In this document: positions 1 to 58,539 of the stretch, piece by piece
Numbering within the stretch: position 1 is the stretch's first letter
Layout: every line of letters starts with the position of its first letter
DNA from: Enterobacter phage Mulvp2
Length of the DNA: 58,539 nt
Sequence record: OR508996.1
Reading direction: 5' to 3' (one strand)
Translations under genes and position numbers: made by a program
The notes under the pieces: generated by a model
What the model saw: only the letters and a program-made list of their open reading frames with translations
What the model was told of the DNA's origin: nothing
Databases searched by the model: none

Positions 1-338
1 ATAATCTGGTCGCGAATTTCAAAGCCGGCCAGACGGATTGCCAGGGTGCCCAGGTCGTAAGTACGTGAACCGAAAAATGCAAGCAGGTGACCGCCTGGTT
101 TCAGTACGCGAAATACTTCTTTCCAGATTGACGGTCCGGGTACAAAACTGTCCCACGACTTACCCATAAACCCGCCGCCGGTGTGTACGTAGTCATCACC
201 ATTCATCCAGTGTTTCATGACTTCCATCATGTCCGGCTCTTTACTCAGTCCATACGGTGGGTCTGTCACCACGGCATCAATGCTGTTATTGGCAAGGCAA
301 GTCCGCATCCCTAACAGACAATCCAGGTTAATTATCAT
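1..338 (-). CDS. DNA methyltransferase (beta-class N6A/N4C), N-terminal part. The gene starts at ATG 338..336, runs off the window start and continues in frame at the window end (57687..58539).
   Basis: Own reverse-complement translation gives MIINLDCLLGMRTCLANNSIDAVVTDPPYGLSKEP...GFEIRDQI, with the DPPY motif IV. 338+853 nt = 397 codons in frame with the C-terminal part at the window end. Confidence 0.75.
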   Translation of the reverse strand, partial: MIINLDCLLGMRTCLANNSIDAVVTDPPYGLSKEPDMMEVMKHWMNGDDYVHTGGGFMGKSWDSFVPGPSIWKEVFRVLKPGGHLLAFFGSRTYDLGTLAIRLAGFEIRDQI

Positions 339-685
339 TTCAATATCTCGCTCACACTGTTAAAAATCGGTTTATTCAGCTCGCGCATTTTGCGGATCTC
401 TTTCGAGCACTGCGCGTCCATTTCCCACCCGTCCAGTACCAGCATACCATCACAGCGCACAAGCAGTTCCATGCAATCCGGTAGCAGCGGCAGACGGTAG
501 CGGTGGTCAAACAGCCATTCACCAAACGTAAGCTGCGGCGCTACAGGCAACCAGTCACTGCGATGGATGATAACCTGCATACATGCGTCACGGATTGCCT
601 GCAGGTTATCACGCACCTCATTCTGGCGCTTGTATGGGTGCTGTTCGAACGCATCGACCGGTCCGCAGATGTAGATCAGGCGCAC
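335..685 (-). CDS. DUF4406 / nucleoside 2-deoxyribosyltransferase-like protein
   Basis: 116 aa. N-terminus MRLIYICGPVD resembles the Ndt/DUF4406 signature. ATGA start/stop overlap with the downstream methylase. Confidence 0.4.
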   Translation of the reverse strand: MRLIYICGPVDAFEQHPYKRQNEVRDNLQAIRDACMQVIIHRSDWLPVAPQLTFGEWLFDHRYRLPLLPDCMELLVRCDGMLVLDGWEMDAQCSKEIRKMRELNKPIFNSVSEILK

Positions 686-1041
686 GGTAACTCCGCCAGC
701 ACTTTGTCGACGCCGACGATATCAATGCCGCGTAGCACGTCGTGGATCAGGCTGACGCGTTCCGGGTCGCTGCATTTAATCTTCGTCTGGGTGCCAGCCG
801 CCATAATCTGGTAAAACTGGTACAGGTACATGCCGCGCTTCTCGCACTCGTTGCGCAGGTTTTCAATCGGCGTGCGGTTTGGTGCAACGCTCATACCTTT
901 GATCGCCAGGTCAAGCATGCGACGTTTGCCGGCAACAGGTTTGTCGCACAGCCAGTTGTAAACTGACTGCCCGGTTACGCCCCAGCGCTTACCGAGCGCA
1001 GCGCGCTCTTTGGCCGGAATTTCTAACTGGTAAACTGCCAT
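676..1041 (-). CDS. hypothetical protein
   Basis: 121-aa ORF. SD AAGAGGA 7 nt upstream of ATG 1041. Confidence 0.5.
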   Translation of the reverse strand: MAVYQLEIPAKERAALGKRWGVTGQSVYNWLCDKPVAGKRRMLDLAIKGMSVAPNRTPIENLRNECEKRGMYLYQFYQIMAAGTQTKIKCSDPERVSLIHDVLRGIDIVGVDKVLAELPCA

Positions 1042-1102
1042 AAAATAAGTCCTCTTAACGTTAGTAATAATTATTTTATTACGAGTTTATACGCTTCGTC
1101 AA

Positions 1103-3247
1103 TTATTTGCGGAAACGAGGACCGCGCCACCCGCCCGCAGCTTTTACCGGCCAGTCTTTTGCCCAGTCAGGCAATTGACCCATTATCTCTTCGAACTCTT
1201 CGACAGCACCGTAGCCGATCGGAACCTCCGCCATCGCCTCATCGTGGACGTGCATGACAATAGGGTATTTGGAATCAAGGCGCACTAGTGCATGTGCGAG
1301 CAGATCGCGACATGTTCCCTGTACGACGTTGTTACAGAGTTTACCGCCCCAGGTGTCAATGCGCTGCCAGCGAGGTGCGGCTCGTGCCTTTTCCGGCATA
1401 CCGTAGTAGTACATCTGGTATGATGGTTGCCCTCGCCATGTGCCTTTCAATTCCAGTCCGGCACGATGATAGGTAAGTATTCGACCAGAGGGTAGACGGC
1501 AGTACAGGTTGCCATTTTTCATCTGGTACATAATGCCGTTGTACTGGAATGTGCTACCGGGCTGTTGTATGGCTGAAGACGCTGCGTGTTCCAGTCCATA
1601 CCAGAAGTCGCGGACTTTCGGTGATTTTGCACGCCAGTTTTTTACGGTCTGGTCCATTTCGCTTTCAGACATGAATTTGTCCGCCCCAAATGCAACTAAA
1701 CTTGCAACTCCGCCGCCATACCCTAGCGCCAGTTCTGCGGTCTTACCATGCTGTCGGTATGGGTGATGGTGACCGCCGTGTTCGTTCTGATAAGTTTTGA
1801 AATCTTCCATTGACATGCCATACATCTGTCCGGCCGACGCTTCATATATTTTTCCGTGAGTGCGGAAAACATCGATTCGCCATTCTTCCCCGGCGAGCAT
1901 CGCCAGGCCTCGGGCCTCAATAGCTGAATAGTCTGCGTTAATGAATTCGTGTCCGGGAGCCGCCATTATGAATCCACGAAGACACCCTGATATAGCTTTC
2001 ATGGCATTGCCGAAACGGTGCTCAATAACGTCCAATGATCGTGTCTGTAACAGTGCGATACATTCAAGCGCGTAATTCTCGTCCCACTCATTACCGTCAA
2101 CTTTCGGACCGGACCGAGGGAAGTTATGCGGCTGTGGCCCACTGCCAGCCCATCGTCCGGTACGCTCCGCGCCGCAGTAAATGAAAGCACCATGCAGACG
2201 CCCATCCCCAGATGCGAAGTTGCGCATACTGAAAAGTTTGGCAATACTCGCCGATCCTAGCATCTGGCGTATCTCAAGAACACGTTTTACATCGCTGTCA
2301 AGACCATCTTTATCGACCCATTCGTCAACGGTGTCTGCAGCGGTGTCAGGTACAAAACAACCGCGAGCGTGCAACCAGGCTTTTAATTTCTGGTGACTGT
2401 TCGCCGTAAGGACAGACCCGTTTGTTAGTCTTTGCAATTCAGGTGTGTATCGCGCGACGGCCTGATGATATATGGCGATAGCATTTTCCAGGTTCTCCAT
2501 GTCGACACCGACACCTCTTGCGTTTATCTTCTGATCCAGGATGAACATCTGCTGCTCAAAAGGATTTAGATCAGGGATAGCGGCGGATATAGCAGCTTCT
2601 GCAACAATGTCCTGTGCGTTATAAGTGCAGTTAGTCTGGTATAGTGCAGGGTCGTCTGTTGGTTTAATCCTTTTTCTGGGGTCTGCTTTTGTTGGGGTTC
2701 GCGGCATCCAGAGTTGTTTTGAAACCGAACCACCCAGGGTATCTTTTACGACCTGAAGTTGAAGTGCTTCACCGATCGCGGATAGTTTACGCGGCAGACC
2801 GTATGCCTGTGCTTTGCTCGCACTGCACCTCAATTGTTCAAGCTTAATTGCCGGGAACCCGAGACGCTTGTGCCAAACGTTAGTCCATATGGCATATTCA
2901 AAGAAGGAGTTGTGAGCCTCAATTATCCCACCCATTTCAATATAACGAATCAAATCCGCAGGGCGCGGGTCGCCATATCGCCACTGTTTAGGTCCGGTAC
3001 CATCTTTCAGATTGTAAGCCAGGCTTATAGGCTCGCAAGATGGGTGCATAGAGTACGTCCAGGCCCCTACGTCTGCTATTCCGCCTTTTGTGCCTAACTT
3101 ACACCATTTATTTTTCTCATCATCCCACTCGTACCCGGCTTCACAGTAAGTTTCAAAGTCCATATCTGCATAAACAGCAATTGGACCGAATGGCCCCGGA
3201 ACGGCGTCATATGGTCTGCCGGTGAATGGGTGTGTTAAAACTGTCAT
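1103..3247 (-). CDS. DNA polymerase, family A (T7-like, with 3'-5' exonuclease region)
   Basis: 714 aa. Motif A DYSAIEARGLA, motif B HGKTAELALGYGGG, motif C VHDEAM. SD AAGGAGTGAG before the ATG. Confidence 0.9.
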   Translation of the reverse strand: MTVLTHPFTGRPYDAVPGPFGPIAVYADMDFETYCEAGYEWDDEKNKWCKLGTKGGIADVGAWTYSMHPSCEPISLAYNLKDGTGPKQWRYGDPRPADLIRYIEMGGIIEAHNSFFEYAIWTNVWHKRLGFPAIKLEQLRCSASKAQAYGLPRKLSAIGEALQLQVVKDTLGGSVSKQLWMPRTPTKADPRKRIKPTDDPALYQTNCTYNAQDIVAEAAISAAIPDLNPFEQQMFILDQKINARGVGVDMENLENAIAIYHQAVARYTPELQRLTNGSVLTANSHQKLKAWLHARGCFVPDTAADTVDEWVDKDGLDSDVKRVLEIRQMLGSASIAKLFSMRNFASGDGRLHGAFIYCGAERTGRWAGSGPQPHNFPRSGPKVDGNEWDENYALECIALLQTRSLDVIEHRFGNAMKAISGCLRGFIMAAPGHEFINADYSAIEARGLAMLAGEEWRIDVFRTHGKIYEASAGQMYGMSMEDFKTYQNEHGGHHHPYRQHGKTAELALGYGGGVASLVAFGADKFMSESEMDQTVKNWRAKSPKVRDFWYGLEHAASSAIQQPGSTFQYNGIMYQMKNGNLYCRLPSGRILTYHRAGLELKGTWRGQPSYQMYYYGMPEKARAAPRWQRIDTWGGKLCNNVVQGTCRDLLAHALVRLDSKYPIVMHVHDEAMAEVPIGYGAVEEFEEIMGQLPDWAKDWPVKAAGGWRGPRFRK

Positions 3248-4184: not shown

Positions 4185-4940
4185 TTACGCGCTCCATTTC
4201 GCGTAGCCCTGATTTACCATCTGTTCGTCGCTAAACCCGTTAGCGCGAAGTTGCTCAATGGTCCATGCCTGCGTAGGGATCAGCGTCTTAACCGCTGGCG
4301 CAGGTGGCTGCAGGAAATCAGGCGCAGGTGCCGGGTTAGGGTTAGGCGCGGTCTGTTGCGGTGCCTGAGCTACGCCGAAAGCATTTGCTAGTGCCTGTGC
4401 GTTCATGCCGCCACCGGACGCTTCTGCGATCTGTGGACGCTGAGTTTTGTCAAAGTTGACAACCTGAATGCCCTGCAGACCTAACGAAACGCCTTTGTTA
4501 CCGGAGTTGTCGTACTTGTATGCGTCAACACACAGTTTAATACCCGCGCCGGAATAAAATTTGTCTTTTTCAAAATTCAGATCCATCGGCTGGCCGTTAA
4601 GGTTGATAACACCGACAGGATAACCTGACTTGGCGTTGATAACCCATTTCCCGGCGTATGCTGAAACTTTAACACCTGCTGAACTCTGATACACATCGCC
4701 ATCGTGCCAGCGATCGTTGACGCTGAATGGATTGATGAACGGTACTTTTTCCAGTGTCGCTTTGTTTTGCAACAACTGAGTCAGTTCCTGGACAGTCGCT
4801 GCGTCATTTTTATCTACCAGCACTTTTACGCTGTACTTACCATTGTCGTCAGGCTTGCTGATATTTTCAAAAGCCAGAATTACTTCGTTTGTTACTACTT
4901 TACCGTCAGATAAAATCATTTCGATGCTCCATTGAACCAT
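4185..4940 (-). CDS. DUF2815-like protein (putative phage ssDNA-binding protein)
   Basis: 251 aa. Sits between the DUF2800 nuclease and the DNA polymerase, as in the conserved DUF2800/DUF2815/PolA replication module. Gln/Pro-rich C-terminal tail. Confidence 0.4.
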   Translation of the reverse strand: MVQWSIEMILSDGKVVTNEVILAFENISKPDDNGKYSVKVLVDKNDAATVQELTQLLQNKATLEKVPFINPFSVNDRWHDGDVYQSSAGVKVSAYAGKWVINAKSGYPVGVINLNGQPMDLNFEKDKFYSGAGIKLCVDAYKYDNSGNKGVSLGLQGIQVVNFDKTQRPQIAEASGGGMNAQALANAFGVAQAPQQTAPNPNPAPAPDFLQPPAPAVKTLIPTQAWTIEQLRANGFSDEQMVNQGYAKWSA

Positions 4941-6058
4941 TCAGAAAGTTTTGACGCGACTGCCGCGCCGGGTTGTTCAGAGGCAACTAATCGCTTGCCT
5001 CCTGCTGGTTTAAAGATTAACAGCTTTGATACGTCGCTGTCAATTATTTTATCGATATTTGCCGGACTGATTAACTCGCGTGGTTTGCTGACCTTCTCAA
5101 CAAGGTCCGGCCGCATTGCGCAAAGGATGTCATATGCGCCTTCGACATATTTACGGTGCGTGTTGCGCTGCACCAGTTTGTAACCCGGGATATGCTTACC
5201 CTGGTTTTCGGCCATGTGGAACGCCAGTTTATCGACCGCGTCCTGCTGCGATTTGATAAACGTTGCCGCCTCATCAAGCAGGCGTTTGCGTTCCGCCATT
5301 TGCTCAGGTGTGGGATTCTGTAATTCAGTCATTACGATCACCTGTTTCAGATAGTGCTCTGTGCGCGCCCAGTGCGCCTCACACGACGCCATTCCCGGAC
5401 AATATTCGCACCATGCCCCGACGTTAAACGTGTGCTCACCGGCGCGCTTTGCCGCCTCGAATATCTTTACCCACCAGGTGTAAAGTTCCTGCAGCGTCAA
5501 ATTCCATGTCCGCGGTTCGCCGCATAACGGCTGAATAATATGACCGGTCACCGTTTCCGGTAAAGGCCACCCGCGTTCCTGAATATTACGCACCGCGCCG
5601 ATCAGATAAAACGCTAACTGGTGGTTGTCGACCGCTGGTACGAAAAGTCGACCGTGCTTCGCGTCAAATACGTCCAGATGTCGGTACAACGGACTGTAGC
5701 TGATACAGTCGGCCGTGCCGTACATGTCGTCAGACAGACTGACGCGCTGTTCAATAAACGTGTTGTCCCAGTTCAGCGCGCAGTGATCCACAACGTAATC
5801 AACGTACGTATCGCTTTCCAGGAACATGTCTTCGTACAGACTGACATCGTTCGGCGCATATGACGGCCAGATACCATCGAAATCACGACCGTGCTGTTTC
5901 CAGTGATTCAGACGTGTCTCGTCGACCCAGTGCAATGCGGTACCGCGCGCCGCGGCGTCACTTTCAGTGTCAGGTGGTGCAAGATGCAGTATCGCCACAC
6001 TGCCCGGGCAGTTTGCCCAGCGATAACATGACGACCCGCCTAACGTTGCGTGTGACAT
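4916..6058 (-). CDS. DUF2800 PD-(D/E)XK (Cas4-like) nuclease with Cys cluster
   Basis: 380 aa. N-terminus MSHATLGGSSCYRWANCPGS. C-terminal CEYCPGMASCEAHW cysteine cluster, typical of Cas4/DUF2800 Fe-S nucleases. Confidence 0.6.
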   Translation of the reverse strand: MSHATLGGSSCYRWANCPGSVAILHLAPPDTESDAAARGTALHWVDETRLNHWKQHGRDFDGIWPSYAPNDVSLYEDMFLESDTYVDYVVDHCALNWDNTFIEQRVSLSDDMYGTADCISYSPLYRHLDVFDAKHGRLFVPAVDNHQLAFYLIGAVRNIQERGWPLPETVTGHIIQPLCGEPRTWNLTLQELYTWWVKIFEAAKRAGEHTFNVGAWCEYCPGMASCEAHWARTEHYLKQVIVMTELQNPTPEQMAERKRLLDEAATFIKSQQDAVDKLAFHMAENQGKHIPGYKLVQRNTHRKYVEGAYDILCAMRPDLVEKVSKPRELISPANIDKIIDSDVSKLLIFKPAGGKRLVASEQPGAAVASKLSEWFNGASK

Positions 6059-6060
6059 AT

Positions 6061-6318
6061 TTATTCACCGTCAATAGTGAATTGCAGTTTCTGGAGTTTG
6101 ACTTTTTGCTTTTCGATCGATGCCAGTTTGTTAGTACGACGACGTTCACAGTCTGCCAGCGCTTCTTCGCGGGTTAGCCAGAAGTCTTTACCGTGGGCAG
6201 TCTGGAGATAACTATTACCAATACGATAGGACGCCATTGAGCCTGAATGTGAAATTTCAGCGTCAACCTTAAAGGGACCTTCAGTCAATGCATATTTTGT
6301 TACGTAAACTGCTGTCAT
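6061..6318 (-). CDS. hypothetical protein; paralog of the 23746..24024 product
   Basis: 85 aa. Shares VTKYALT(E/R)G and a C-terminal K/R-rich helix with the secreted protein at 23746..24024. Confidence 0.5.
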   Translation of the reverse strand: MTAVYVTKYALTEGPFKVDAEISHSGSMASYRIGNSYLQTAHGKDFWLTREEALADCERRRTNKLASIEKQKVKLQKLQFTIDGE

Positions 6319-6339
6319 AATTGCTCACCTCTTAAATAA

Positions 6340-6357
6340 AGCCCGCCGGAGCGGGCT
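6340..6357 (-). terminator. intercistronic hairpin (AGCCCGCCGGAGCGGGCT) followed on the minus strand by TTTATTT
   Basis: GC-rich perfect hairpin plus T-run, directly upstream of the SD AGGTGA of gene 6061..6318. Confidence 0.4.
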
Positions 6358-6364
6358 GAATGGG

Positions 6365-7672
6365 TTACTTGACCAGGTCGGCGATTGGTACGCCGGCGAC
6401 GATAGATGGCAGGTTAGCGATAATCTGATCGCGCACTTCGTACATTTTCTGCATCTGCTCGGTGGTCGCTTCAGGCACAGTGGTCACGCCGGACAGTTTC
6501 AGCAGAGTCTGGACGATCTGCCCGTGATATTTTGGCATATAGTCAGCCGCCGCAGCGGTACCGGCTTTCTGCAGTTCCTGCACGATCTGCTGGAAGTCCT
6601 GAATACGGTTGGTACTCGGCACCGGTGCAGGAGTTGGTTCCGGTGTTGGCGCTGGTGTTGGGTCAGGCTGCGGGACCGGAGTAGGTTCCGGTTGTGGTGC
6701 TGCGCCGGTCAGTTCAGCAGTCACAGCGGCAACAGTCGCATCGTCAACGCCGCGGCGTTTTTTCCAGGTACCGTCACCGTTCAGCGCTTTAGTGCCAGCG
6801 TGAATACGCTCGTCCCATGGTAGACCGTTTTTGTCGGTAGCAGGCGGTGCGTCGTTAACAGTTTCGACTTCTACGTCAACATCACCTGTAACAGTAACAT
6901 TTGGCCCTGGTACTGGTTGTGGAACCGGCGCAGCATTGGCTTTCAGCGCGTCCTGTACCACGGTTTGATTAACCACTTCACCAACCACACGTTGAATATC
7001 TTGTTTCAGTGGACCGCCGGTCGCAAGAGTAACAGAATCACCGTTCAGTTTTGCCACGATGTCAGCCAGTTCGGAAGTGCTTTCGGTTTTAATGCTCAGT
7101 GTAAATTCAGCCATTTCTTTTGGTTTCCTGTTGATAAGTTTTTGAAATACAGCGTTGCAGAATTCTGCTTCGTTAATTGCATCGTGCAGGGCGTTATGTT
7201 TAACACCTTTGAACGTGTTGTGCCAGTGGTCGAGTCCGAGAATATGCGTGCCGATAAACGTCAGCGTGCGCATATCCAGATCGCCCCAGTATTTAATCGG
7301 TGACTGCATACCGATTGCTTTACATGCCGACTCCAGCCACTGGTTATCAGCGCGCGGACCGTTGCCGATCGCATACTGCACACCGTGTCCGGCTAACCAT
7401 TTGGTAAAGTCTACCAGTACGTCGCGTAACGGGCGCTGGTCAACAGACAGGACATCCTGTGCAGCCTGACCCTGTTTAGCCCACCACGCTTTTGTTGACT
7501 CGCTCACATCCAGACCGGCGGCGATTGACGATTCAGGCGTGATGTTCGCGTAGAATGTGTCGACCTGCTGCCCGGTATTAAAATCACAGATAACTGCACC
7601 GATGCTTAGCAACGCGGCGTTATGCTCTGTGCTGAGTGTTTCCATATCGATTGTCGCTACGAGTGGGATCAC
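6365..7672 (-). CDS. DnaQ-like DEDDh 3'-5' exonuclease fused via a Pro/Thr linker to C-terminal domains of unknown function
   Basis: 435 aa. Exo I IDMETLS and Exo III HNALHDAINEAEF. The linker PQPEPTPVPQPDPTPAPTPEPTPAPVPS separates a roughly 90-aa C-terminal domain. Confidence 0.7.
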   Translation of the reverse strand: MIPLVATIDMETLSTEHNAALLSIGAVICDFNTGQQVDTFYANITPESSIAAGLDVSESTKAWWAKQGQAAQDVLSVDQRPLRDVLVDFTKWLAGHGVQYAIGNGPRADNQWLESACKAIGMQSPIKYWGDLDMRTLTFIGTHILGLDHWHNTFKGVKHNALHDAINEAEFCNAVFQKLINRKPKEMAEFTLSIKTESTSELADIVAKLNGDSVTLATGGPLKQDIQRVVGEVVNQTVVQDALKANAAPVPQPVPGPNVTVTGDVDVEVETVNDAPPATDKNGLPWDERIHAGTKALNGDGTWKKRRGVDDATVAAVTAELTGAAPQPEPTPVPQPDPTPAPTPEPTPAPVPSTNRIQDFQQIVQELQKAGTAAAADYMPKYHGQIVQTLLKLSGVTTVPEATTEQMQKMYEVRDQIIANLPSIVAGVPIADLVK

Positions 7673-35392: not shown

Positions 35393-35395
35393 GCG

Positions 35396-35746: not shown

Positions 35747-35757
35747 GAGGGGATAAC

Positions 35758-44907: not shown

Positions 44908-44915
44908 TAAAATAA

Positions 44916-45423: not shown

Positions 45424-45527
45424 TATTGCATCCTCACTGTTTACGTCAACGTCAATTATTTTAACCGTTGCTATTCATGCTGTCAACACTGTAAAATAAC
45501 TATCACCAACATAACGAGGTGTTTGAC

Positions 45528-46464: not shown

Positions 46465-46550
46465 ACACGTTATCCTCAATTATTTTAACCTGCCGTTGTT
46501 ATCTCACATACAGTATACTGTGTCAATAGTCATTTCAGCGAGACATCAAA

Positions 46551-49888: not shown

Positions 49889-49890
49889 TC

Positions 49891-50754: not shown

Positions 50755-51260
50755 TGCAAGATGAACTGAAAGAACTACTGACAACCGCCACCACGGGTAA
50801 AGGCGTGGTTGATGGCGTTGAACTTAACCACTCATCCTGGCCTAATGCTCTGTACCTGACATCCGTTTACCCGGGTTTCACGGCGGTACATGAAGACAGC
50901 CTGTCATATGAGTATGAATATGTGCCGATGAGCGTGACAAAGGCGTCAAAGCAGAATGACTTGTCACAGGATTTCTCGTTTACCATTCAGGATCTGAATG
51001 AAGTTGTCGGAGTGTATCTCGATCTGATACCGCTTGACAGTGAAGAAAAACCGTCGGTCACACTGCGAACTTTTGTTTATCGCGCTGATGGCAGTATTTC
51101 CGATCTGCAGGACGGACCGTACAACCTGGAAGCGAAAGACATTACGACTGAACCTGAAGGATGTACGTTCACCGCATCACCACCTCTGACTAACTTCAGC
51201 GGAACAGGTGAATTGTATACCTTCGCACGCTTCCCGTCACTGCTGGCATATGCAACATGA
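50754..51260 (+). CDS. minor tail protein (weak gpL-like N-terminal similarity)
   Basis: 168 aa. Begins MQDE.. like lambda L. Position fits. Confidence 0.4.
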   Translation: MQDELKELLTTATTGKGVVDGVELNHSSWPNALYLTSVYPGFTAVHEDSLSYEYEYVPMSVTKASKQNDLSQDFSFTIQDLNEVVGVYLDLIPLDSEEKPSVTLRTFVYRADGSISDLQDGPYNLEAKDITTEPEGCTFTASPPLTNFSGTGELYTFARFPSLLAYAT

Positions 51261-51616
51261 TCGGCGATCGATACGATATTGACCTGTGGAACTGTACGCA
51301 TGAGGTTGCGCAGTGGTACCAGTTGCACGGTTATGACAATCTGCTAAAAGGTATCCCGGCTGATAGCTGGGATATTTCTTTTGTCAGGTGGATGCGCAGG
51401 CGTTTCGATCCGCTTGAGCGACCTGAGCAGGCAGCACTGGTTTTGATGCACAACAGGTATACAGGCGGGCTACATGTTGGCGTGTGGGATAGCGGGATGG
51501 TACACCACTGCTACCAGCCCCCGGGTGATACTCCGGGACAGACAATTCGTACGCCGATCGGTATAATCAAAACAGCACATAAAAACATAACATTCTGGAG
51601 ACTGAAAAGTGTCTAA
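51257..51616 (+). CDS. NlpC/P60-family minor tail protein (gpK-like C-terminal domain only)
   Basis: 119 aa. WNCTHEV (Cys) ... GGLHVGVW (His) catalytic pattern. No MPN domain. Confidence 0.5.
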   Translation: MIGDRYDIDLWNCTHEVAQWYQLHGYDNLLKGIPADSWDISFVRWMRRRFDPLERPEQAALVLMHNRYTGGLHVGVWDSGMVHHCYQPPGDTPGQTIRTPIGIIKTAHKNITFWRLKSV

Positions 51617-54128
51617 AATCGTATACCATCCGGAAAATGAAATTGCTGAAAACGTAGATTTTGGTGAGTGGTTTTTGAAAAAATGGCCGCCCGGCACAGT
51701 CGTTCCTCGCGGTTTGCTAATCTATCGCAATGACGAAAATATCACTCAAAAATGGATGACAGACCATTCAGTGCTGCGTGATCCGGATGCAACATACCAT
51801 ATCTACGAAATGCCAAAGGGTGGGGTTGTGGGTGCCATCACAAAAATCATCAGCACGATTTTAAACCCCATTCTTAAACTTTTTCTGCCCAATACTTCCG
51901 CATCAGCTAATCTTAAAAACAGCCGAAGCGCCTCATCTAACAACGCGCTGCAGGGTCGCACTAACGCATCACGCCCGGGTGAACGTATTGCCGACATTCG
52001 CGGTTTTGTACGAGCATATCCTGACCTTCTGATGGACTATCGAATTTTTAAAGACCGCACCGAGTACGAAGTGCAGTTTTTATGCGTTGGTGCCGGGCAG
52101 TATCAGCTTGAAGATGTGCGGGACGGAATTACGCCAGCGGCGAACATAAGCGGCGAACAACTTGATTTTTACAAAAATGGCGCGGCTCCCGGATTTGGTT
52201 CGCCTTACATGAACATTGGTGGTGCGGTTAACCTTTCGCAGTTCCCGATCATGGTGGCAAAAGCATCGAATGAGGCTGACGGATCTGAAGTCAAGCCGCC
52301 TAACTACGCGGATATCAGCAAAGCTACATTTAAAATTTACAGTACGGGTGAAATTGACACGTCTATCGAATCCTCGACGAGTACAACTATTGACTGGTCG
52401 GAACGAGCGCCTGTTGGTAGCACTGTGACCCTGACGCAGTTTTACAGTTTCACAGCGAATGCGCTGCCTGCCGGTACATACACACGTAACGATTTGTCAG
52501 GAACATATACGGTGTTGTCATCAGGTGAGAATATACTGATTGTTGACACCACGGGACATACAGGATGGTCGGCATTATCCGGGTCCGGGCAGGCGGCATA
52601 TCTTGAAGCATATCTGCGGACAGATGGATACTGGGAATTCAGCAACAGTGGTGGCAGCACTTTGCAGAAATTCGCGCCGTCCGTGGATAGCTCGACACCT
52701 TATGTTGTCGGACCATACCTGCTGGACAGTGCAGATAAAGTGATGGTGAATCTGTATGCCCAGAACGGCGTTTACAAAACCGATGGCGACGTTTATCCGT
52801 TTACCTGCAACTTCCAGGTTATTTTGTCTGACCCCACTGGCGCAATGGCAAACGTCACATATAACATGAGTGTATCAGGTCGATTCACTGAAGCAGTGGG
52901 TAATACGCTGATTGTTAATAATCCATATCCGGGTGCAGTAAACGTTTCTGTGCGCCGTACATCGAATACAGACAAAGACTTTTCAGGGTCTGTGGTTGAC
53001 ACAGTGAAATGGCGCGATCTTTATGCGATCAGCAATATCTCGGCGCGCAGTTACGGCGATGTCACGCTAATTCATACCGTCACAAAAGCCACAAACGCCG
53101 CACTAAAACAGAAAGAACGTAAGCTCAATATGTTGGCTACCCGTATTTACAACGGCGTGGCGAGTCGTAATTTCGCGGATGTCGTACTTTCAATTCATAC
53201 AGACCCTTTCTTCGGACGTCGTGATCTGACAACCATCGATGTCGATGCGCTCTATGACGTGCAGCAACAGATACTTGATTATTTCGGTGACCCTCGCGCT
53301 ATTCAAGTAGGGTACACTTTTGATAACAATAGCACCACGTACGAAGAAGCGCTGCAGACGATTTGTAATGCTGTCAACGTCACCCCTTATCAGGTGGGCA
53401 ACGTGCTCTATTTCTTCCCGGAACTGCCGCAGACTACATCGGCAATGCAGTTCGGACACATGTTTAAAGTACCAGGCAGTGACAAGCGTACCCGGGCGTT
53501 CTCTCCGCCGAAAGATTACACCGGTGTCCAGGTGAAGTATTATGACCACGATGAAGAATCATATTTGTACGTGACCCAGGGTGAAGAAACCAACGTTAAC
53601 AAAATTGACCTCGACGCCTGCCAGTCTAAATATCTGGCCGGTATTCGTGCGCGTCGGGAATACAACAAACTTCTTTACCAGCGTGTCACACACGAATGTC
53701 AGGCATTGAGTATAGGATTACAGGCAGCACCGGGTATGCGTGTCGACATGGTAGACAACACCCGTGTCAAGCAGATGGACGGCGTGGTAACCGATGTCGA
53801 CGGTCTGACACTGTACCTGAGTGACCCTGTAGAATTACTGTCCGGTTACACCTATAGCATTACGCTAACCGGACGCCTGGGAACTCTGGAGAATTTACAG
53901 ATCTCCGCCGGCGCGGATGAATTCAGCGTGGTATTACAGTCAATGCCAGATCAGGAAATTTACACAGGATGGATGCGGGATCGCACAGCGTATGTTATTC
54001 GTACTGATGACGAGCGTACCAAACTGGCGATGCTGGTTCAGAGTATGGAACCGTCCGGGCGGGATAACAACTATCAGGTAGGTTTAACGTGCATCAATTA
54101 CGATGCACGTTATTATCAGGATGATTAA
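51609..54128 (+). CDS. central tail fiber / host specificity protein (gpJ-like), GTG start
   Basis: 839 aa. Follows the K-like gene. Large beta-rich protein. Confidence 0.6.
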   Translation: MSKIVYHPENEIAENVDFGEWFLKKWPPGTVVPRGLLIYRNDENITQKWMTDHSVLRDPDATYHIYEMPKGGVVGAITKIISTILNPILKLFLPNTSASANLKNSRSASSNNALQGRTNASRPGERIADIRGFVRAYPDLLMDYRIFKDRTEYEVQFLCVGAGQYQLEDVRDGITPAANISGEQLDFYKNGAAPGFGSPYMNIGGAVNLSQFPIMVAKASNEADGSEVKPPNYADISKATFKIYSTGEIDTSIESSTSTTIDWSERAPVGSTVTLTQFYSFTANALPAGTYTRNDLSGTYTVLSSGENILIVDTTGHTGWSALSGSGQAAYLEAYLRTDGYWEFSNSGGSTLQKFAPSVDSSTPYVVGPYLLDSADKVMVNLYAQNGVYKTDGDVYPFTCNFQVILSDPTGAMANVTYNMSVSGRFTEAVGNTLIVNNPYPGAVNVSVRRTSNTDKDFSGSVVDTVKWRDLYAISNISARSYGDVTLIHTVTKATNAALKQKERKLNMLATRIYNGVASRNFADVVLSIHTDPFFGRRDLTTIDVDALYDVQQQILDYFGDPRAIQVGYTFDNNSTTYEEALQTICNAVNVTPYQVGNVLYFFPELPQTTSAMQFGHMFKVPGSDKRTRAFSPPKDYTGVQVKYYDHDEESYLYVTQGEETNVNKIDLDACQSKYLAGIRARREYNKLLYQRVTHECQALSIGLQAAPGMRVDMVDNTRVKQMDGVVTDVDGLTLYLSDPVELLSGYTYSITLTGRLGTLENLQISAGADEFSVVLQSMPDQEIYTGWMRDRTAYVIRTDDERTKLAMLVQSMEPSGRDNNYQVGLTCINYDARYYQDD

Positions 54129-56044
54129 GAATGCAAACGGATGTCTGCACTAACAATTGATGAACCCAGCGGTACTAACGTGCCGCTTCCGTTATAGAAG
54201 CGTAGTACCAGATTGCGTCCCGTAATTTCCGGCAGGCAAACAAGTCCCGCTACGGAGGCTGGTGTCACGGTGCAGTTCCTGACTGCGTCTGTAGTTACAT
54301 GGCTCTTAAACACAATGGTGATTTTCCCAGTGCCTGTGACAGACACAGAGCTAAACAAGGAGTTGGTGTCTGTCAGAGTGAGGGTGCCGTTGACATTAAC
54401 AATACGCGCAAAGCGCTCCCAGTTCACCGTGAGGTCTGTTACGTTATCCAGTCCGACAAATACCGCACGCGCGGTGTCAACGTTAAATACCTTAATGTTA
54501 CTATTACTTCCTTGGAATCGAATAAGGGCCGCTCCCGTAGGAGAGCCTGCGGATACGAAGTCTTTAATTCCGTCAAATGTAGTATTGAATGTTCCTGGCT
54601 GTACAAGAATAGGGTTTGCACTTCCGTGGCTTTTAATGCGGGTATTCGTAAAGTAACTATCTCGACAGGTAACAGCTAACGCGTGAAGACGTACAGTGGC
54701 CGGGGTTACACCAGATTTAATTTCACCTTCAAACGTGTAGTTGTCTACACGAAGACCTACTACCGTGTTAGGTTGGTTATCAACACCTCCTGAGATTCCA
54801 TATACAGCATTGTCATCGTATTGGATAATTTTCATGTGCCCGTTACGAATCTGTAGGTCCTGGATAGCACCATTATCGGCATTAAGCCCAAACCCACCAT
54901 TGGAGCCGTTAACGTTAAATCCATCAATCATGCAGCGATTACTGCGACGAATAACAGCTGACGGCATATTTCTGTTGTCGATATTCACGTAAAGCGCGAT
55001 CAGATTTTTGACAATTATGTCTTCACAGAAATTCCCCAGGGCATCAACCGAGATATATAGCGCATGACGTCCGAGGTCGCCGTCTGCTGTGCTGGCTCTG
55101 AAATTGATGCCGTCAATTAATGCCCTCTTGCAACCACCGAGCAACACGCCGTAACCCCCCGCGGCCACGTTGTCGTGATAACGCATGTTTCTGGCGTAAA
55201 CATCCCGCACAACAAAATCAGAGCAACGCAGAATTTCCGTTGCGCCACTGAACTGTTTCGCGTCCAGCCCTATGATTTTAAAGTTTTCGCTGTCTTCTAA
55301 CTGTATACCATAGGCCACATTGCCAGTTGATGGCCCATTAACAATATTGCCAATGATGCGTAAGTTTCGGATAGTGAATCCTTTCTTGAATTCTGAATGT
55401 ACAGCCCTCGCAACTGCTGTCATAGTTAAACTGCCGCCTACACCGTCCACAACCTGATAATCGTTAGGGAGAATAGGGACTGTTCGCGAAAGCCCAGTGT
55501 TAATTTGTACATCAGGTCCATTAGCTAGCACGACAGATGGGTCATTTGCGTACCCGTCCGGCCTGCGGTCAATAGCATTCAGGTCAAGTAAAAGATTTCC
55601 ACGATGACTGGTTCCAACGATTGCCCCGGTACCATTTGCCAGGTCTGTACGCAATGTTAAATCTGATTGATCCACCCAACCCGGTAACAGATTATTACTG
55701 CTGTCGAACGGAGAACTACCGGCGGGTACATCTAATCCACCAACCGGGATTGCACCAATCCACTGGTAAAATCCGCCGTTCGTTTCATACAGCAACACAT
55801 CCCAGCGATTTACCAGGGTGCCGCCGTCTTCGAATGATCCGTTTACTGGCTTGAATCCGATATCTGAAAAAAGACCGTCCAGGGTGGCATTCGTGTAACC
55901 CACGCCACGAATAGGATCTGTGACGACCAGTGCCGGATTACCGTTAGCGTCTTTACTGGTCGCTACGTGTTCGATGTGGAGAATCGACTCTTTTGCCGCT
56001 TTCAGGTCATCGGCGCTGACATACTGGGCGCATGAATCTGCCAT
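54125..56044 (-). CDS. tailspike / receptor-binding depolymerase-like protein with parallel beta-helix repeats, encoded on the opposite strand
   Basis: 639 aa. Central region shows beta-helix periodicity (I/V/L alternation, N/G turns, e.g. IRNLRIIGNIVNG...). Stop codon overlaps the J stop (ATTAAG). Confidence 0.55.
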   Translation of the reverse strand: MADSCAQYVSADDLKAAKESILHIEHVATSKDANGNPALVVTDPIRGVGYTNATLDGLFSDIGFKPVNGSFEDGGTLVNRWDVLLYETNGGFYQWIGAIPVGGLDVPAGSSPFDSSNNLLPGWVDQSDLTLRTDLANGTGAIVGTSHRGNLLLDLNAIDRRPDGYANDPSVVLANGPDVQINTGLSRTVPILPNDYQVVDGVGGSLTMTAVARAVHSEFKKGFTIRNLRIIGNIVNGPSTGNVAYGIQLEDSENFKIIGLDAKQFSGATEILRCSDFVVRDVYARNMRYHDNVAAGGYGVLLGGCKRALIDGINFRASTADGDLGRHALYISVDALGNFCEDIIVKNLIALYVNIDNRNMPSAVIRRSNRCMIDGFNVNGSNGGFGLNADNGAIQDLQIRNGHMKIIQYDDNAVYGISGGVDNQPNTVVGLRVDNYTFEGEIKSGVTPATVRLHALAVTCRDSYFTNTRIKSHGSANPILVQPGTFNTTFDGIKDFVSAGSPTGAALIRFQGSNSNIKVFNVDTARAVFVGLDNVTDLTVNWERFARIVNVNGTLTLTDTNSLFSSVSVTGTGKITIVFKSHVTTDAVRNCTVTPASVAGLVCLPEITGRNLVLRFYNGSGTLVPLGSSIVSADIRLHS

Positions 56045-56121: not shown

Positions 56122-56154
56122 GTGAGCATATACCCACCCTACGGTGATGATAGC

Positions 56155-56535
56155 ATGAATGACTCACAACTACACCAGCAAATAGGCAAGCTGACAGAAG
56201 CGGTTACCCACATTAACGACAGCGTAAATCTTCTGGGGAACCGCATGACAGACCTTAGCGAGAAGGTGAGTAACATCGATCGCAAGCTGGACAACATGGT
56301 CCAGAAAGACACTTTGCGCATGATGGGCTTTGACTATACTCAGCCTGAAGAACATCGTAAAGATCAGGAATGGCTGCGCAGTCAACGCCGCAAATCTGAT
56401 AGCTGGCGACCGGTAGTCTGGCATATCGTAAAGGCTATTTTGACAGTAGTCGCTATTGCAATTTGCACATACGTGTGGCAGGCAACCGTCGACCGCGCTA
56501 AAACGGACGTGACGCATTATGAACAAAGTAAGTAA
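56155..56535 (+). CDS. coiled-coil protein with single C-terminal TM segment (holin/antiholin candidate)
   Basis: 126 aa from ATG 56155 (SD GGTGA). TM segment WHIVKAILTVVAIAICTYVW. First gene of the lysis cluster. Confidence 0.35.
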   Translation: MNDSQLHQQIGKLTEAVTHINDSVNLLGNRMTDLSEKVSNIDRKLDNMVQKDTLRMMGFDYTQPEEHRKDQEWLRSQRRKSDSWRPVVWHIVKAILTVVAIAICTYVWQATVDRAKTDVTHYEQSK

Positions 56536-57064
56536 ATATGTCATTGCTGTACTGCTCGTCGCCGTTCCTGCACAGGAAGGGCTGAAGCGATACGTATATA
56601 AAGACCAGGGCGGCGTACCGACGGCCTGCAGCGGTGTAACGGGTAAGAATATCAAAATGGGCATGACGTTTACTGATGAGCAATGCCGCGACATGAACCT
56701 GCAGGCAATACTGTCCCACACGAAACCACTTGAGAAAATTCCGCATCAGCTACCTGACCGCGTCAACATCGCTTTCGGCTCATGGCTTTATCAGTACGGT
56801 GAGACGAATTTCAACAGCAGCACGGCGCGCCAGTATCTGATGCAGAATCGTCTGCATGATGCGTGTGACCAGATCTTGCGCTGGAAATTCACGCGAGTCG
56901 GTAACGTGAAAAAAGACTGCTCCATAGCGAGCAGTAAGTGTGGCGGGGTATGGAAACGCGCACAGGATAATAACGCTGTGTGTCTGGGTAAAATTACCGT
57001 CAATGAATACCTGCGCCGGATCGGTGCTGAACCTCTGAGGTACGAAGGTGATTACAGCAACTAA
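56519..57064 (+). CDS. SAR endolysin, GH24 lysozyme (E-8-D-5-T catalytic triad)
   Basis: 181 aa. N-terminal weakly hydrophobic YVIAVLLVAVPA SAR-like segment, then EGLKRYVYKDQGGVPTACSG. Confidence 0.8.
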   Translation: MNKVSKYVIAVLLVAVPAQEGLKRYVYKDQGGVPTACSGVTGKNIKMGMTFTDEQCRDMNLQAILSHTKPLEKIPHQLPDRVNIAFGSWLYQYGETNFNSSTARQYLMQNRLHDACDQILRWKFTRVGNVKKDCSIASSKCGGVWKRAQDNNAVCLGKITVNEYLRRIGAEPLRYEGDYSN

Positions 57065-57257
57065 GTCATGGTCAGTATGGGCGCTTGTCATCGGGTTGCT
57101 ACTCGATGCATTCAACGAGTATTTCGGTGCGTGGTTCCCGGGATGGTTCACGTGGTGTATCTTCGGCGCGGCGCTGGCTTGCCGCTTCATCTCTCAGGAG
57201 GCTGTACGTGAACAAGCTATACGTTTGTATTGCCGCGTTGTTAATCGTCATTGGTAG
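57048..57257 (+). CDS. possible 2-TM pinholin-like ORF filling the endolysin-Rz gap (GTG start, poor RBS)
   Basis: 69 aa. Two hydrophobic segments: WSVWALVIGLLL and WFTWCIFGAALAC. No ATG in frame. Confidence 0.2.
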   Translation: MITATKSWSVWALVIGLLLDAFNEYFGAWFPGWFTWCIFGAALACRFISQEAVREQAIRLYCRVVNRHW

Positions 57258-57579
57258 TCACTGGTTCGCTTACAGAGCAGGCTGGTCGGCACACGCTGAT
57301 AAGATTAACGCACAGGCTGCGGAACGCCGGCAGAAAGCAGAAAACCGTCAGGCTAAATCTACCAGTCAGTCTCAAAAGGTGCGTACTATCACCGAGACTA
57401 AATACAAAACCATTTACCGTGATGTGGTGAAATATGTTGACGATCCGAACCGTGTTAAGTGTGATTACGATCCTGAGTATATCAGGTTGCGTCAGTCAGC
57501 CCTGGACGCCGACGCCGCCGTCAGCCGAGATGAAAGGACCGGTGTGCGAATTGTCGAAAAAGGCACCGACAAACACTGA
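57208..57579 (+). CDS. i-spanin (Rz-like)
   Basis: GTG 57208, 6 nt after AGGAGG. N-terminal TM segment LYVCIAALLIVIGSHWFAY, then a coiled-coil periplasmic domain. Confidence 0.65.
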   Translation: MNKLYVCIAALLIVIGSHWFAYRAGWSAHADKINAQAAERRQKAENRQAKSTSQSQKVRTITETKYKTIYRDVVKYVDDPNRVKCDYDPEYIRLRQSALDADAAVSRDERTGVRIVEKGTDKH

Positions 57580-57682
57580 CGAAAGCGTGGTGAGTGATAA
57601 CCAGGACACTGAGTGCGCCACGAAACGCAAGATGATTATTTACGACTGGCAAGACTGGTACCGCGATAACTTTGAAAAATAG
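57434..57682 (+). CDS. o-spanin (Rz1-like lipoprotein) in the +1 frame, overlapping the 3' part of Rz
   Basis: 82 aa. Signal plus lipobox LSISGC. Pro-rich mature part. Confidence 0.7.
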   Translation: MLTIRTVLSVITILSISGCVSQPWTPTPPSAEMKGPVCELSKKAPTNTDESVVSDNQDTECATKRKMIIYDWQDWYRDNFEK

Positions 57683-57708
57683 CCCGCTACGTGCGGGCTT
57701 TTGCTATA
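57681..57708. terminator. bidirectional terminator AGCCCGCTACGTGCGGGCT + TTTGCTAT (the minus-strand methylase stop lies inside the hairpin)
   Basis: Perfect stem. TTTT follows on the plus strand and ATTTTTC on the minus strand. Confidence 0.6.
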
Positions 57709-58539
57709 CGTTGCTCTGCTATTTCGCAGTAATGCGGATCCATTTCAAAACCGATGAATTCGAACCCCTCCAGCATACACGCTTTGCCTGTTGAACCACT
57801 GCCTGTGAACGGATCAAGAACAGTTCCGCCCGGCGGCGTGACGAGTCGTACAAGCCATTGCATCAGCGCTGTGGGTTTAACTGTCGGGTGGTCATTGCGT
57901 GCACCTGATGTACGTCCTGCCCCGGCGCGAGGTGAGTTCATACCGGCGCTATCAGCATCACGGTCAACCATTTCAGCGGCAGAGGTTGCAGCGAGTGACA
58001 CACCTTCATCGCGATCGGCTTTACTGGCTTTAGCGCAGTAAAAGAAACGTGACCATTCTTCAGCATTAAGTCCATCATGGACGAAGTTTGCAGGCCAGCG
58101 CCCTTGTTCAGATGGTTGCCAGTCGTTTTGTGGATAATCAATGTTATCGCGTTGATGACTTAACAAACCGCCACTGCCGCCTTTTATTTGTTCGTCAGTT
58201 GGCACACGACATCCGTCAATATTCAGCGCGCCGGTACTGTGCGTTAGTACGTTTTCAGCCACAGTACCGGATAACGGTTTGCGGGCAACACAGATCGGTT
58301 CATGCGCCGGTTTGAGTGCTGTACCCCAGCCTGACCACTGTTTCGCTTCGTCGGTGGCTGGTGCTGTGATGTAAGCTTTTTCAGGCATGCCAACCGCAGA
58401 CATATTCAAACTGTTACCACCCGATTTATTGCCTGCTGGGTTTTTATGCTCTCCGATGACCTCACGTTCTACTCCAGCCGCCTTGTCAATCGCCTTACTC
58501 ACATCCAGCGATTTTGGAAATCCGGATCCATACACCCAC
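57687..58539 (-). CDS. DNA methyltransferase (beta-class N6A/N4C, PF01555-like), C-terminal part. The N-terminal part is at 1..338.
   Basis: ...WVYGSGFPKSLDV...HPTVKPTALMQWLVRLVTPPGGTVLDPFTGSGSTGKAC, with the motif I FxGxG at the C-terminus. The ORF runs to the window edge with no start. Confidence 0.8.
   Translation of the reverse strand, partial: WVYGSGFPKSLDVSKAIDKAAGVEREVIGEHKNPAGNKSGGNSLNMSAVGMPEKAYITAPATDEAKQWSGWGTALKPAHEPICVARKPLSGTVAENVLTHSTGALNIDGCRVPTDEQIKGGSGGLLSHQRDNIDYPQNDWQPSEQGRWPANFVHDGLNAEEWSRFFYCAKASKADRDEGVSLAATSAAEMVDRDADSAGMNSPRAGAGRTSGARNDHPTVKPTALMQWLVRLVTPPGGTVLDPFTGSGSTGKACMLEGFEFIGFEMDPHYCEIAEQRIAKART

What the first reader, a model, noticed from the sequence alone, without database searches (positions are those of the whole stretch)
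1..58539. The window is a complete circularly permuted phage genome; a methyltransferase gene is split across its ends
Two partial minus-strand ORFs lie at the window edges. At 1..338 there is an N-terminal piece with a good ATG and motif IV DPPY that runs off the start with 2 nt of an unfinished codon (at). At 57687..58539 there is a C-terminal piece (motif I FTGSGST) that begins at the window edge without a start codon. Joining end to start gives at+g = ATG and a continuous reading frame of 1191 nt (397 codons), reading ...GFEIRDQI-M-WVYGSGFPKS... This is the normal architecture of beta-class N6A/N4C methyltransferases. The gene content (replication genes, terminase, portal, capsid, tail and lysis genes) also forms one complete phage gene set.
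Basis: seen in the sequence. Interest (0 to 1): 0.6.

Follow-up and report, generated by a model that had tools for sequence, protein, structure and literature searches.

The report
Complete phage genome, arbitrarily cut open
The window is one full copy of the circular assembly of an uncultured 9NA-type tailed phage that was cut open inside a DNA methyltransferase gene. The "split gene" is therefore a bookkeeping artefact, but the genome also holds an unannotated tmRNA-like RNA gene that deserves separate study.

Summary
On the minus strand, 338..1 joined to 58539..57687 reads as one 1191-nt ORF of 396 aa. It gives a single end-to-end PF01555 match and aligns as one piece with phage 9NA gp61. 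Six independent metagenome contigs carry the junction as contiguous, gap-free DNA at 93-96% identity, so no base is missing or duplicated.

The window has no terminal or large internal repeat. It holds a full gene set in the same circular order as Salmonella phage 9NA, has no integrase or host flank, and has no copy in 5,426 complete E. coli genomes.

It is a unit-length, closed genome of an uncultured 9NA-type siphovirus (TerL at most about 51% identical to cultured phages). The split gene is an ordinary result of linearising a circular assembly. True circular permutation of the virion DNA (headful packaging) is only inferred, from 9NA.

Two things were noticed in passing:
- The methyltransferase carries swappable internal cassettes.
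- At about 22978-23275 lies an unannotated, structured tmRNA-like RNA with the tag frame ANDDVVLMAA and two covarying pseudoknots. It recurs in hundreds of enterobacterial phages, prophages and plasmids, but no canonical tRNA-like domain was found.

The parts
1..338 (-). 5' part (codons 1-112 plus 2 nt of codon 113) of the beta-class DNA methyltransferase gene; contains motif IV DPPY
   Evidence: ATG at 338-336 overlaps the stop of the upstream gene by 4 nt
57687..58539 (-). 3' part of the same methyltransferase gene (last base of codon 113 to the stop); contains motif I FTGSGST and three internal cassettes (about 58070-58480) that differ between near-identical relatives
335..685 (-). 116-aa gene, weak homolog of 9NA gp62 (annotated nucleoside 2-deoxyribosyltransferase); right-hand neighbour of the methyltransferase in all relatives
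676..1041 (-). conserved 121-aa gene, found with identical protein sequence on at least 23 public contigs; used as an anchor to fetch junction-spanning loci
1103..3247 (-). family A DNA polymerase (no detectable similarity to the 9NA polymerase)
4185..7672 (-). ssDNA-binding protein (4185-4940), DUF2800 exonuclease (4916-6058), small ORF, Rv2179c-like exonuclease (6365-7672)
8466..10142 (+). DEAD/ResIII helicase (40% identical to 9NA gp70)
12278..14587 (+). DNA primase
18282..18899 (+). small terminase candidate (homolog of 9NA gp1; PHROG 51)
19442..19936 (+). HNH endonuclease gene inserted between TerS and TerL
19933..21690 (+). large terminase (50% identical to 9NA TerL)
22978..23275 (+). 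unannotated structured tmRNA-like RNA: tag frame 23036-23068 (GCA...TAA = ANDDVVLMAA*), stop-codon hairpin, two H-type pseudoknots, then a helix enclosing a variable tRNA-like insert (23168-23233)
26915..28279 (+). portal protein
31535..36753 (+). head module: SPP1 gp7-like head morphogenesis (31535-32461), gp37-like methyltransferase (33687-34169), scaffold-like (34169-35392), 35396-35746, major capsid protein (35758-36753)
37156..40109 (+). head-tail connector, neck and tail terminator genes
43465..54128 (+). tail module: major tail (43465-44907), chaperone (45519-45938), tape measure (46551-49316), distal tail and fibre genes, tail tip (51609-54128; 75% identical to 9NA gp54)
54125..56044 (-). 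tailspike (N-terminal adaptor domain 43% identical to the 9NA tailspike)
56122..57682 (+). lysis cassette: holin-like (56122-56535), lysozyme (56519-57064), small membrane protein, Rz-like spanin (about 57208-57579), overlapping lipoprotein ORF with LSISGC lipobox (57434-57682); left-hand neighbour of the methyltransferase in all relatives
   Evidence: the Rz1 assignment is read from the sequence only

Best explanation
The window is one unit-length copy of a circular assembly of a virulent, uncultured siphovirus built on the 9NA plan (58,539 bp, 50.2% G+C, probably infecting Enterobacteriaceae). Whoever produced the record opened the circle at an arbitrary point that happens to lie in codon 113 of a beta-class N6A/N4C DNA methyltransferase gene. 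The gene therefore appears as two fragments at the window ends. In the phage it is one intact 396-aa gene, lying between the lysis cassette and the replication genes.

Shown:
- The join is exact.
- The genome is complete and colinear with relatives.
- There are no repeats and no host DNA.

Inferred: the assembly is circular because virion DNA is terminally redundant and circularly permuted, packaged by a pac-site headful mechanism as reported for 9NA. The methyltransferase most likely protects phage DNA from host restriction, and its swappable internal cassettes probably set target specificity.
For: - Join: an in-frame 1191-nt ORF forms only at offset 0.
- Domain: a single full-length PF01555 match.
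- Relatives: 99% coverage and 60-67% identity to methylases of 9NA-like phages; 9NA gp61 aligns in one HSP across the join.
- Independent contigs: eight metagenome loci show DNA pol - 121 aa - 116 aa - MTase - spanin - lysozyme - holin - tailspike contiguously. Gap-free alignments cross the join in L002, L004, L005, L007, L008 and L009 at 93-96% identity.
- Contig sizes: related contigs are 56,982 to 60,743 bp and are opened at different places.
- No repeats: no terminal repeat and no large self-repeat.
- Gene set: TerS, TerL, portal, head, neck, tail, tailspike, lysis and replication genes are all present, in 9NA order.
- Not integrated: no integrated or plasmid copy in 5,426 E. coli genomes.
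- Packaging: 9NA assembled as a circle and gave a pac fragment (PMC4153490).
Against: - No reads are available, so physical termini, terminal redundancy and a pac site are not observed.
- TerL is only 50% identical to 9NA TerL, so the packaging mode is an extrapolation.
- Region 31-49 kb was not compared with close relatives. It is internal to the window and does not bear on closure.
- The window's source and assembly method are unknown.
Confidence: 0.9

Rival explanations
1. The genome is complete, but virion DNA has fixed ends with exact direct terminal repeats (T7-, T5- or N4-like) or cohesive ends. Assemblers collapse such ends into a circle as well, so the record would be rotated but the virion DNA would not be circularly permuted.
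For: Circular assembly alone cannot separate these cases, as Casjens et al. say for 9NA. TerL is only about 50% identical to any phage with known packaging.
Against: [quoted passage not shown] Five independently assembled relatives and the window are opened at different places. That fits arbitrary opening of a circle, not a common physical end.
Confidence: 0.2
2. The window is an excised prophage, or an incomplete fragment whose ends only happen to look compatible.
For: None found. It was considered because the record ends inside a gene.
Against: - No integrase or repressor module was found in the PHROG scans.
- There is no copy in 5,426 complete E. coli genomes.
- The ends join base-perfectly into a conserved gene that is contiguous in relatives.
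- All modules of a 9NA-type genome are present.
Confidence: 0.02
3. The closure is an assembly artefact: a chimera of two related phages, or a concatemer that was trimmed wrongly.
For: The lineage is highly mosaic. Relatives differ by cassettes and insertions, which can confuse metagenome assemblers.
Against: There is no duplicated segment. The length matches relatives. The join lies in a conserved stretch that aligns without gaps to six independent contigs.
Confidence: 0.03

Closest known systems
Salmonella phage 9NA (Nonanavirus) and the Sashavirus / Carvajevirus group of virulent siphoviruses
   Same: - Same circular gene order, from TerS and TerL through head, tail, inverted tailspike, lysis, MTase and the deoxyribosyltransferase-like gene to the replication genes.
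- Tail-tip genes are 65-78% identical.
- The methyltransferase is 60% identical and sits in the same position.
- Many small genes are interspersed among the virion genes.
- 9NA also assembled as a circle.
   Different: - DNA similarity is limited to about 13% of the genome at about 71-73%.
- TerL is 50%, portal 38% and MCP 31% identical.
- The DNA polymerase, SSB, primase, holin and endolysin have no detectable 9NA counterpart.
- The genome is 5.7 kb longer.
- The window falls below the usual genus threshold, so it is a separate uncultured lineage known only from metagenome contigs.
Beta-class amino-DNA methyltransferases (PF01555; CcrM, M.RsrI, M.PvuII, DpnA)
   Same: Motif IV DPPY is N-terminal and motifs X and I-III are C-terminal. 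The C-terminal 70 aa align with CcrM, DpnA and M.RsrI structures. The Pfam match is full length.
   Different: About 290 aa lie between the two conserved blocks, against roughly 130-170 aa in the solved enzymes. This middle part is made of three cassettes that are exchanged among phages that are otherwise 90-96% identical (lengths 357-524 aa). No partner restriction enzyme gene was seen, so it is an orphan. The target sequence and the base modified are unknown.
Bacterial tmRNA (SsrA) - for the RNA noticed at 22978-23275
   Same: - A 10-codon tag begins with GCA and resembles ANDENYALAA.
- It is preceded by an A-rich AUAAAU and has no start codon.
- The stop codon sits in a hairpin loop.
- H-type pseudoknots follow the tag.
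   Different: - It scores below the Rfam thresholds (31 bits against 47).
- ARAGORN does not find it.
- No recurring acceptor stem, G3-U70 or CCA end was found.
- The tag C-termini are LMAA or LAVA, not LAA.
- It lies in phage tRNA clusters or, in a lambdoid prophage, in the late-operon leader.

Membership tests
Complete, circularly closed phage genome record | The two ends join without loss or gain of bases | tested here: met
   An in-frame ORF forms only at offset 0. Gap-free alignments cross the join in six independent contigs. There is a single HSP with 9NA gp61.
Complete, circularly closed phage genome record | One unit length: no terminal or large internal duplication | tested here: met
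   No shared end k-mer. Self-BLAST shows only 78-bp and 134-bp repeats.
Complete, circularly closed phage genome record | Full set of packaging, head, tail, lysis and replication genes | tested here: met
Complete, circularly closed phage genome record | No host flanks and no integration module | tested here: met
   No integrase among the scanned ORFs. No copy in 5,426 E. coli genomes.
Headful (pac) packaging with circularly permuted, terminally redundant virion DNA | Permuted ends, a pac fragment, and packaged length greater than genome length | not testable with these tools
   This needs reads or virion DNA. The only support is 50% TerL identity to 9NA, for which a pac fragment was reported.
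Beta-class N6A/N4C DNA methyltransferase (PF01555) | Pfam match above the gathering score over the full profile | tested here: met
   115.3 bits against a cutoff of 26.7; profile 1-220/221
Beta-class N6A/N4C DNA methyltransferase (PF01555) | Permuted motif order: IV (D/S-PP-Y/F) before I (FxGxG) | tested here: met
   DPPY at aa 27-30 and FTGSGST at aa 354-360
Beta-class N6A/N4C DNA methyltransferase (PF01555) | Methyl transfer to adenine N6 or cytosine N4 at a defined target | not testable with these tools
   This needs methylome sequencing or enzyme assays.
Genus Nonanavirus / Sashavirus (9NA-like phages) | Shared gene order and homologous core virion genes | tested here: met
Genus Nonanavirus / Sashavirus (9NA-like phages) | Genus-level nucleotide identity (about 70% over the whole genome; ICTV convention, from my own knowledge) | tested here: not met
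   Megablast finds at most 14% of each half covered, at 70-73%. TerL is at most 51% identical to cultured phages.
tmRNA (for the RNA at 22978-23275) | Tag reading frame with a resume codon and no start codon, ending in a stop | tested here: met
   A 10-codon frame is kept in about 105 of 120 viral loci and in all nine aligned phages, with synonymous variants. An in-frame TAG lies 7 codons upstream with no start codon between (sequence).
tmRNA (for the RNA at 22978-23275) | Pseudoknot-rich body supported by covariation | tested here: met
   91.5% of cells paired against 85.0% in shuffles (0/500) and 32-45% when slid. 219 double-sided changes against 78 expected.
tmRNA (for the RNA at 22978-23275) | tRNA-like domain: 5'/3' acceptor stem with G3-U70, T-arm and CCA end | tested here: inconclusive
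   ARAGORN is negative. There is no recurrent stem plus NCCA (49/94 against 39 in shuffles). The window's own candidate (22961-67 with 23362-68, then ACCA) is not in the MFE fold.
tmRNA (for the RNA at 22978-23275) | Score at or above the Rfam gathering threshold | tested here: not met
   RF04321 scores 31.2 bits against 47; RF00023 and RF01850 score far below threshold.

The most novel reading that the evidence does not exclude
Beyond being a new 9NA-type phage, this genome carries a member of an apparently uncatalogued family of phage-borne tmRNA-like RNAs. The family has an SsrA-like 10-codon tag with altered C-termini (LMAA or LAVA) and two covarying pseudoknots. It occurs in hundreds of virulent phages, lambdoid prophages and phage-like plasmids of Enterobacteriaceae. 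The RNA may take part in, redirect or block host trans-translation during infection. One way would be to tag stalled products with a peptide that host proteases handle differently. Another would be to act as a decoy for SmpB or ribosomes.
Probability: 0.3. Interest if true: 0.75.

Novelty: new member of a known kind. Interest (0 to 1): 0.2.

Why it matters
For the finding as given, the value is practical. The record can be treated as a complete genome and re-opened upstream of the small terminase gene (about 17.7-18.2 kb). The two end fragments should then be annotated as one methyltransferase gene, not as two pseudogenes.

It adds a complete reference for an uncultured branch of the 9NA-type siphoviruses. 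It also shows that this branch varies its orphan methyltransferase by cassette exchange, which is relevant to the arms race with restriction systems.

The by-product may matter more. A structured, SsrA-like RNA goes unannotated in hundreds of well-studied enterobacterial phage and prophage genomes, and it is an easily testable lead on how phages deal with ribosome rescue.

Tried and rejected
- An exact 30-mer across the join and a 36-mer from the window start were not found in IMG/VR, so the source contig is not in that collection.
- The joined protein could not be looked up by exact sequence. Exact look-ups of TerL, MCP and the 176-aa ORF found nothing.
- Rfam at gathering thresholds and ARAGORN found no RNA genes in the window.
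- The Mecenats66 packaging paper does not mention 9NA-type phages.
- I computed where related contigs' ends map on the window. I then realised that "the two ends meet" follows arithmetically from contig length, so only the similar lengths and the different opening points count as evidence.
- For the tmRNA-like RNA, the following all failed to give a family-wide tRNA-like domain: searches for a canonical T-arm, for an acceptor stem plus NCCA, and an MFE fold of the window copy (z = -0.78, and it cannot model pseudoknots).
- The weak ARAGORN tRNA-Ala(UGC) at 23160-23242 lies in an insert that is not conserved across the family.
- The supplements of the 2025 tmRNA database paper did not list phage entries, so prior cataloguing could not be excluded.
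- I rejected the idea that the element is host ssrA or an ssrA-derived attachment site. It is absent from most E. coli genomes and covers the tag region, not the 3' end.
Full report
1. THE OBSERVATION

The window begins ATAATCTGG... and ends ...ATACACCCAC. On the minus strand an ATG at 338-336 opens a frame that runs to position 1 and leaves two bases (AT). The complement of base 58539 supplies G, and the frame continues to a stop whose last base is 57687.

The joined ORF is 1191 nt, or 396 aa. It reads ...AGFEIRDQIMWVYGSGFPKS... across the join, with DPPY near the N-terminus and DPFTGSGST near the C-terminus. When I removed or added one or two bases at the join, the longest stop-free stretch across it fell from 403 codons to 289-317. 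The start codon overlaps the stop of the upstream 116-aa gene by 4 nt.

2. IS THE JOINED GENE REAL?

- Pfam gives a single N6_N4_Mtase (PF01555) stretch covering aa 20-388 and profile positions 1-220 of 221, at 115 bits against a cutoff of 26.7.
- tblastn against 50,697 phage records gives 99% coverage at 60-67% identity to the DNA methylases of Klebsiella phages KP13-27 and VLCpiS10a, Salmonella phages 9NA, Sasha and Sergei, and Proteus phages.
- Against a window extended by its own first 3 kb, 9NA gp61 aligns as one HSP that crosses the join (aa 1-387 of 393, E 5e-166).
- Only the DPPY block and the last 70 residues match solved beta-class enzymes such as CcrM, DpnA, M.RsrI and M.PvuII. This is expected for this class, where the middle part is the target-recognition region.

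3. DIRECT TEST OF CIRCULAR CLOSURE

The 121-aa protein encoded at 676..1041 is found with identical sequence on at least 23 public contigs. In all eight loci fetched (L001-L008), and in L009, the gene order is DNA polymerase - 121 aa - 116 aa - N6_N4_Mtase - spanin - lysozyme - holin - tailspike - tail tip. The two window ends are therefore neighbours on contiguous DNA from independent samples.

I aligned a 6-kb artificial junction (last 3 kb plus first 3 kb) to these loci. Alignments with zero gaps cross the join in L002, L004, L005, L007, L008 and L009 at 93-96% identity, and a gapped alignment crosses it in L006. No base is missing or duplicated at the join.

4. UNIT LENGTH AND COMPLETENESS

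There is no terminal direct repeat. Self-BLAST finds only a 78-bp inverted pair and a 134-bp local repeat, so the window is a single copy.

Four of the related contigs are 58,708, 58,845, 59,544 and 60,743 bp, and two IMG/VR relatives are 57,851 and 56,982 bp. These compare with 58,539 bp here, and the contigs are opened at different places relative to the gene map.

A comparison with the annotated 9NA genome and PHROG scans identify the following genes:

| Module | Gene (window coordinates) |
|---|---|
| Packaging | TerS (18282), HNH endonuclease (19442), TerL (19933) |
| Head | portal (26915), head morphogenesis (31535), scaffold-like (34169), MCP (35758) |
| Neck and tail | neck and tail terminator (39239, 39624), major tail (43465), chaperone (45519), tape measure (46551), tail tip (51609), inverted tailspike (54125) |
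| Lysis | holin, lysozyme, spanin (56122-57682) |
| Across the join | methyltransferase |
| Replication | deoxyribosyltransferase-like gene, DNA polymerase, SSB, exonucleases, helicase (8466), primase (12278) |

This is the 9NA order once 9NA is rotated. No integrase was seen, and a 4-kb probe finds no copy in 5,426 complete E. coli genomes.

5. WHAT IT IS AND HOW IT WORKS

The phage belongs to the 9NA type but is distant from every cultured member.
- DNA similarity is confined to the tail-tip region, about 13% of each half at 71-73%.
- TerL is at most about 51% identical to any cultured phage.
- The 9NA polymerase, SSB, primase, holin and endolysin have no detectable counterpart.

For 9NA, Casjens et al. 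reported a circular assembly and a pac fragment without other fixed ends, and concluded headful packaging (PMC4153490). By homology of TerS and TerL (26% and 50% identity) I infer the same here. Concatemers are cut by the headful, virion DNA is terminally redundant and circularly permuted, reads assemble into a circle, and the circle was opened at an arbitrary base.

The closure and completeness are shown. The packaging mode is inferred; I put it at about 0.7. The alternative is fixed direct terminal repeats.

6. THE METHYLTRANSFERASE HAS SWAPPABLE CASSETTES

Among relatives that are 90-96% identical in the flanking DNA, the enzyme is 357-524 aa long. One contig (L003) has a different 258-aa methylase in the same slot.

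The N-terminal 130 aa and the C-terminal 125 aa are nearly invariant. Three internal segments are replaced wholesale:
- after ...SKAIDKA
- between NIDGCR and GRWPANFVHDG
- before RFFYCAKASK

By analogy with target-recognition-domain exchange in Type III Mod and other amino-methyltransferases (my own knowledge), this probably diversifies target specificity. That was not tested. The join at codon 113 lies in the invariant part.

7. NOTICED IN PASSING: A tmRNA-LIKE RNA

7.1 How it was found. A megablast of the first 25 kb hit unrelated phages only at 22978-23257, always in unannotated DNA. A sensitive search found the stretch in 705 phage records. These include Kuttervirus, Felixounavirus, Gamaleyavirus, phage 7-11 and several siphovirus groups.

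7.2 Rfam and the tag frame. Rfam in E-value mode gives sub-threshold tmRNA matches (RF04321, 31.2 bits against 47). These line up a tag frame GCA AAC GAT GAC GTT GTT CTG ATG GCG GCT TAA, which reads ANDDVVLMAA*.

7.3 The tag is conserved. Nine diverse phages all keep a 10-codon frame after an invariant AAAGAUAAAU:
- ANDDVVLMAA
- ANEDRFLMAA
- ANDNTFLAVA
- ANDNVFLAVA
- ANEEMYLAVA
- ANDNAFRVAA

Of 120 IMG/VR loci that carry the motif, about 105 keep exactly ten codons plus a stop. The same peptide is encoded by several synonymous versions. There is an in-frame TAG seven codons upstream and no start codon between (sequence), so this is not an ordinary ORF.

7.4 The structure covaries. The conserved core is 22978-23167 plus 23234-23275, around a variable insert. 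A hand-specified structure contains a stop-codon hairpin and two H-type pseudoknots. On 92 unique copies it is 91.5% paired, against 85.0% in shuffles (0 of 500 reach it) and 32-45% when partners are slid. It shows 219 double-sided changes against 78 expected. The structure was derived from these same sequences, which inflates the paired percentage but not the double-sided changes.

7.5 What is missing. No tRNA-like domain was found.
- ARAGORN finds nothing at default settings and nothing in 119 of the 120 loci.
- No acceptor stem plus NCCA recurs.
- The window's own candidate is not in the MFE fold.

7.6 Where else it occurs. The element is also present, unannotated, in 636 of 5,426 complete E. 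coli genomes (534 places on plasmids, 150 on chromosomes) and in 602 PLSDB plasmids. In one lambdoid prophage it sits between the Q antiterminator and the holin gene, downstream of a late-promoter-like sequence and a terminator.

7.7 Is it already known? The 2014 tmRNA census listed phage ssrA only in mycobacteriophages and Bacillus phage G (PMC4131195). Two FelixO1-like genome announcements mention an ARAGORN ssrA call (PMC4319497). The 2025 database counts 79 phage tmRNAs, but I could not see which ones. I cannot exclude that the element is already catalogued.

8. VERDICT

The finding is right and ordinary. The window is a complete genome of a new, uncultured member of a known phage type, and the split gene is an artefact of how the circle was opened. 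Interest for the finding itself is low. The tmRNA-like RNA and the cassette-bearing methyltransferase are the parts worth a specialist's time.

Noticed in passing
window 22978-23275 (+), possibly extending to about 23376: Unannotated structured RNA resembling the mRNA-like and pseudoknot part of tmRNA. It has the tag frame ANDDVVLMAA* (23036-23068) with no start codon, a stop-codon hairpin and two covarying H-type pseudoknots. It is found in 705 phage records, 636 of 5,426 E. coli genomes, 602 plasmids and at least 120 IMG/VR contigs. It scores below Rfam thresholds and is invisible to ARAGORN, and no canonical tRNA-like domain was identified.
   Followed up: partly
window about 58070-58480 (-), inside the methyltransferase gene; compare L001-L009: Three internal cassettes of the beta-class methyltransferase are exchanged among phages that are otherwise 90-96% identical (protein lengths 357-524 aa). 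One relative (L003) carries an unrelated 258-aa methylase in the same slot. This probably reflects diversification of target specificity.
   Followed up: partly
window 19442-19936 (+); L025 and L026 near window position 20625: An HNH homing-endonuclease gene lies between TerS and TerL. In two IMG/VR relatives the TerL alignment is interrupted by about 1 kb of extra DNA, which suggests an intron, intein or endonuclease insertion in the terminase gene.
   Followed up: no
window 40058-42030 (+): A three-gene insert lies between the tail terminator and the major tail gene: a sialyltransferase-like protein (PHROG 4603), PHROG 6804 of unknown function, and a methyltransferase (PHROG 6564). 9NA has an oppositely oriented endonuclease gene at this spot. 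The insert could be a virion or host-surface modification module.
   Followed up: no
window 3252-3719 (-) and 33687-34169 (+): Two further methyltransferase-like genes: a 155-aa SAM-methyltransferase fold protein next to the DNA polymerase, and a homolog of 9NA gp37. With the gene at 41437 this makes four methyltransferase-type genes in one 58-kb genome.
   Followed up: no
window 1103-3247, 4185-4940, 12278-14587: The DNA polymerase, SSB and primase have no detectable similarity to their 9NA counterparts, although the surrounding genes are syntenic. This looks like replication-module replacement of the kind discussed in papers on polymerase swapping that mention these genera (titles only).
   Followed up: no
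window 21688-21765 and 37030-37103: A 78-bp inverted repeat pair (82% identity) lies just downstream of TerL and just downstream of the major capsid gene. These may be shared terminators or regulatory sites.
   Followed up: no
window 3788-3944: A 150-bp stretch of the Gp49-family gene is 85-91% identical to prophage genes in nine E. coli chromosomes. This is a small hint that the host is E. coli or a close relative.
   Followed up: no
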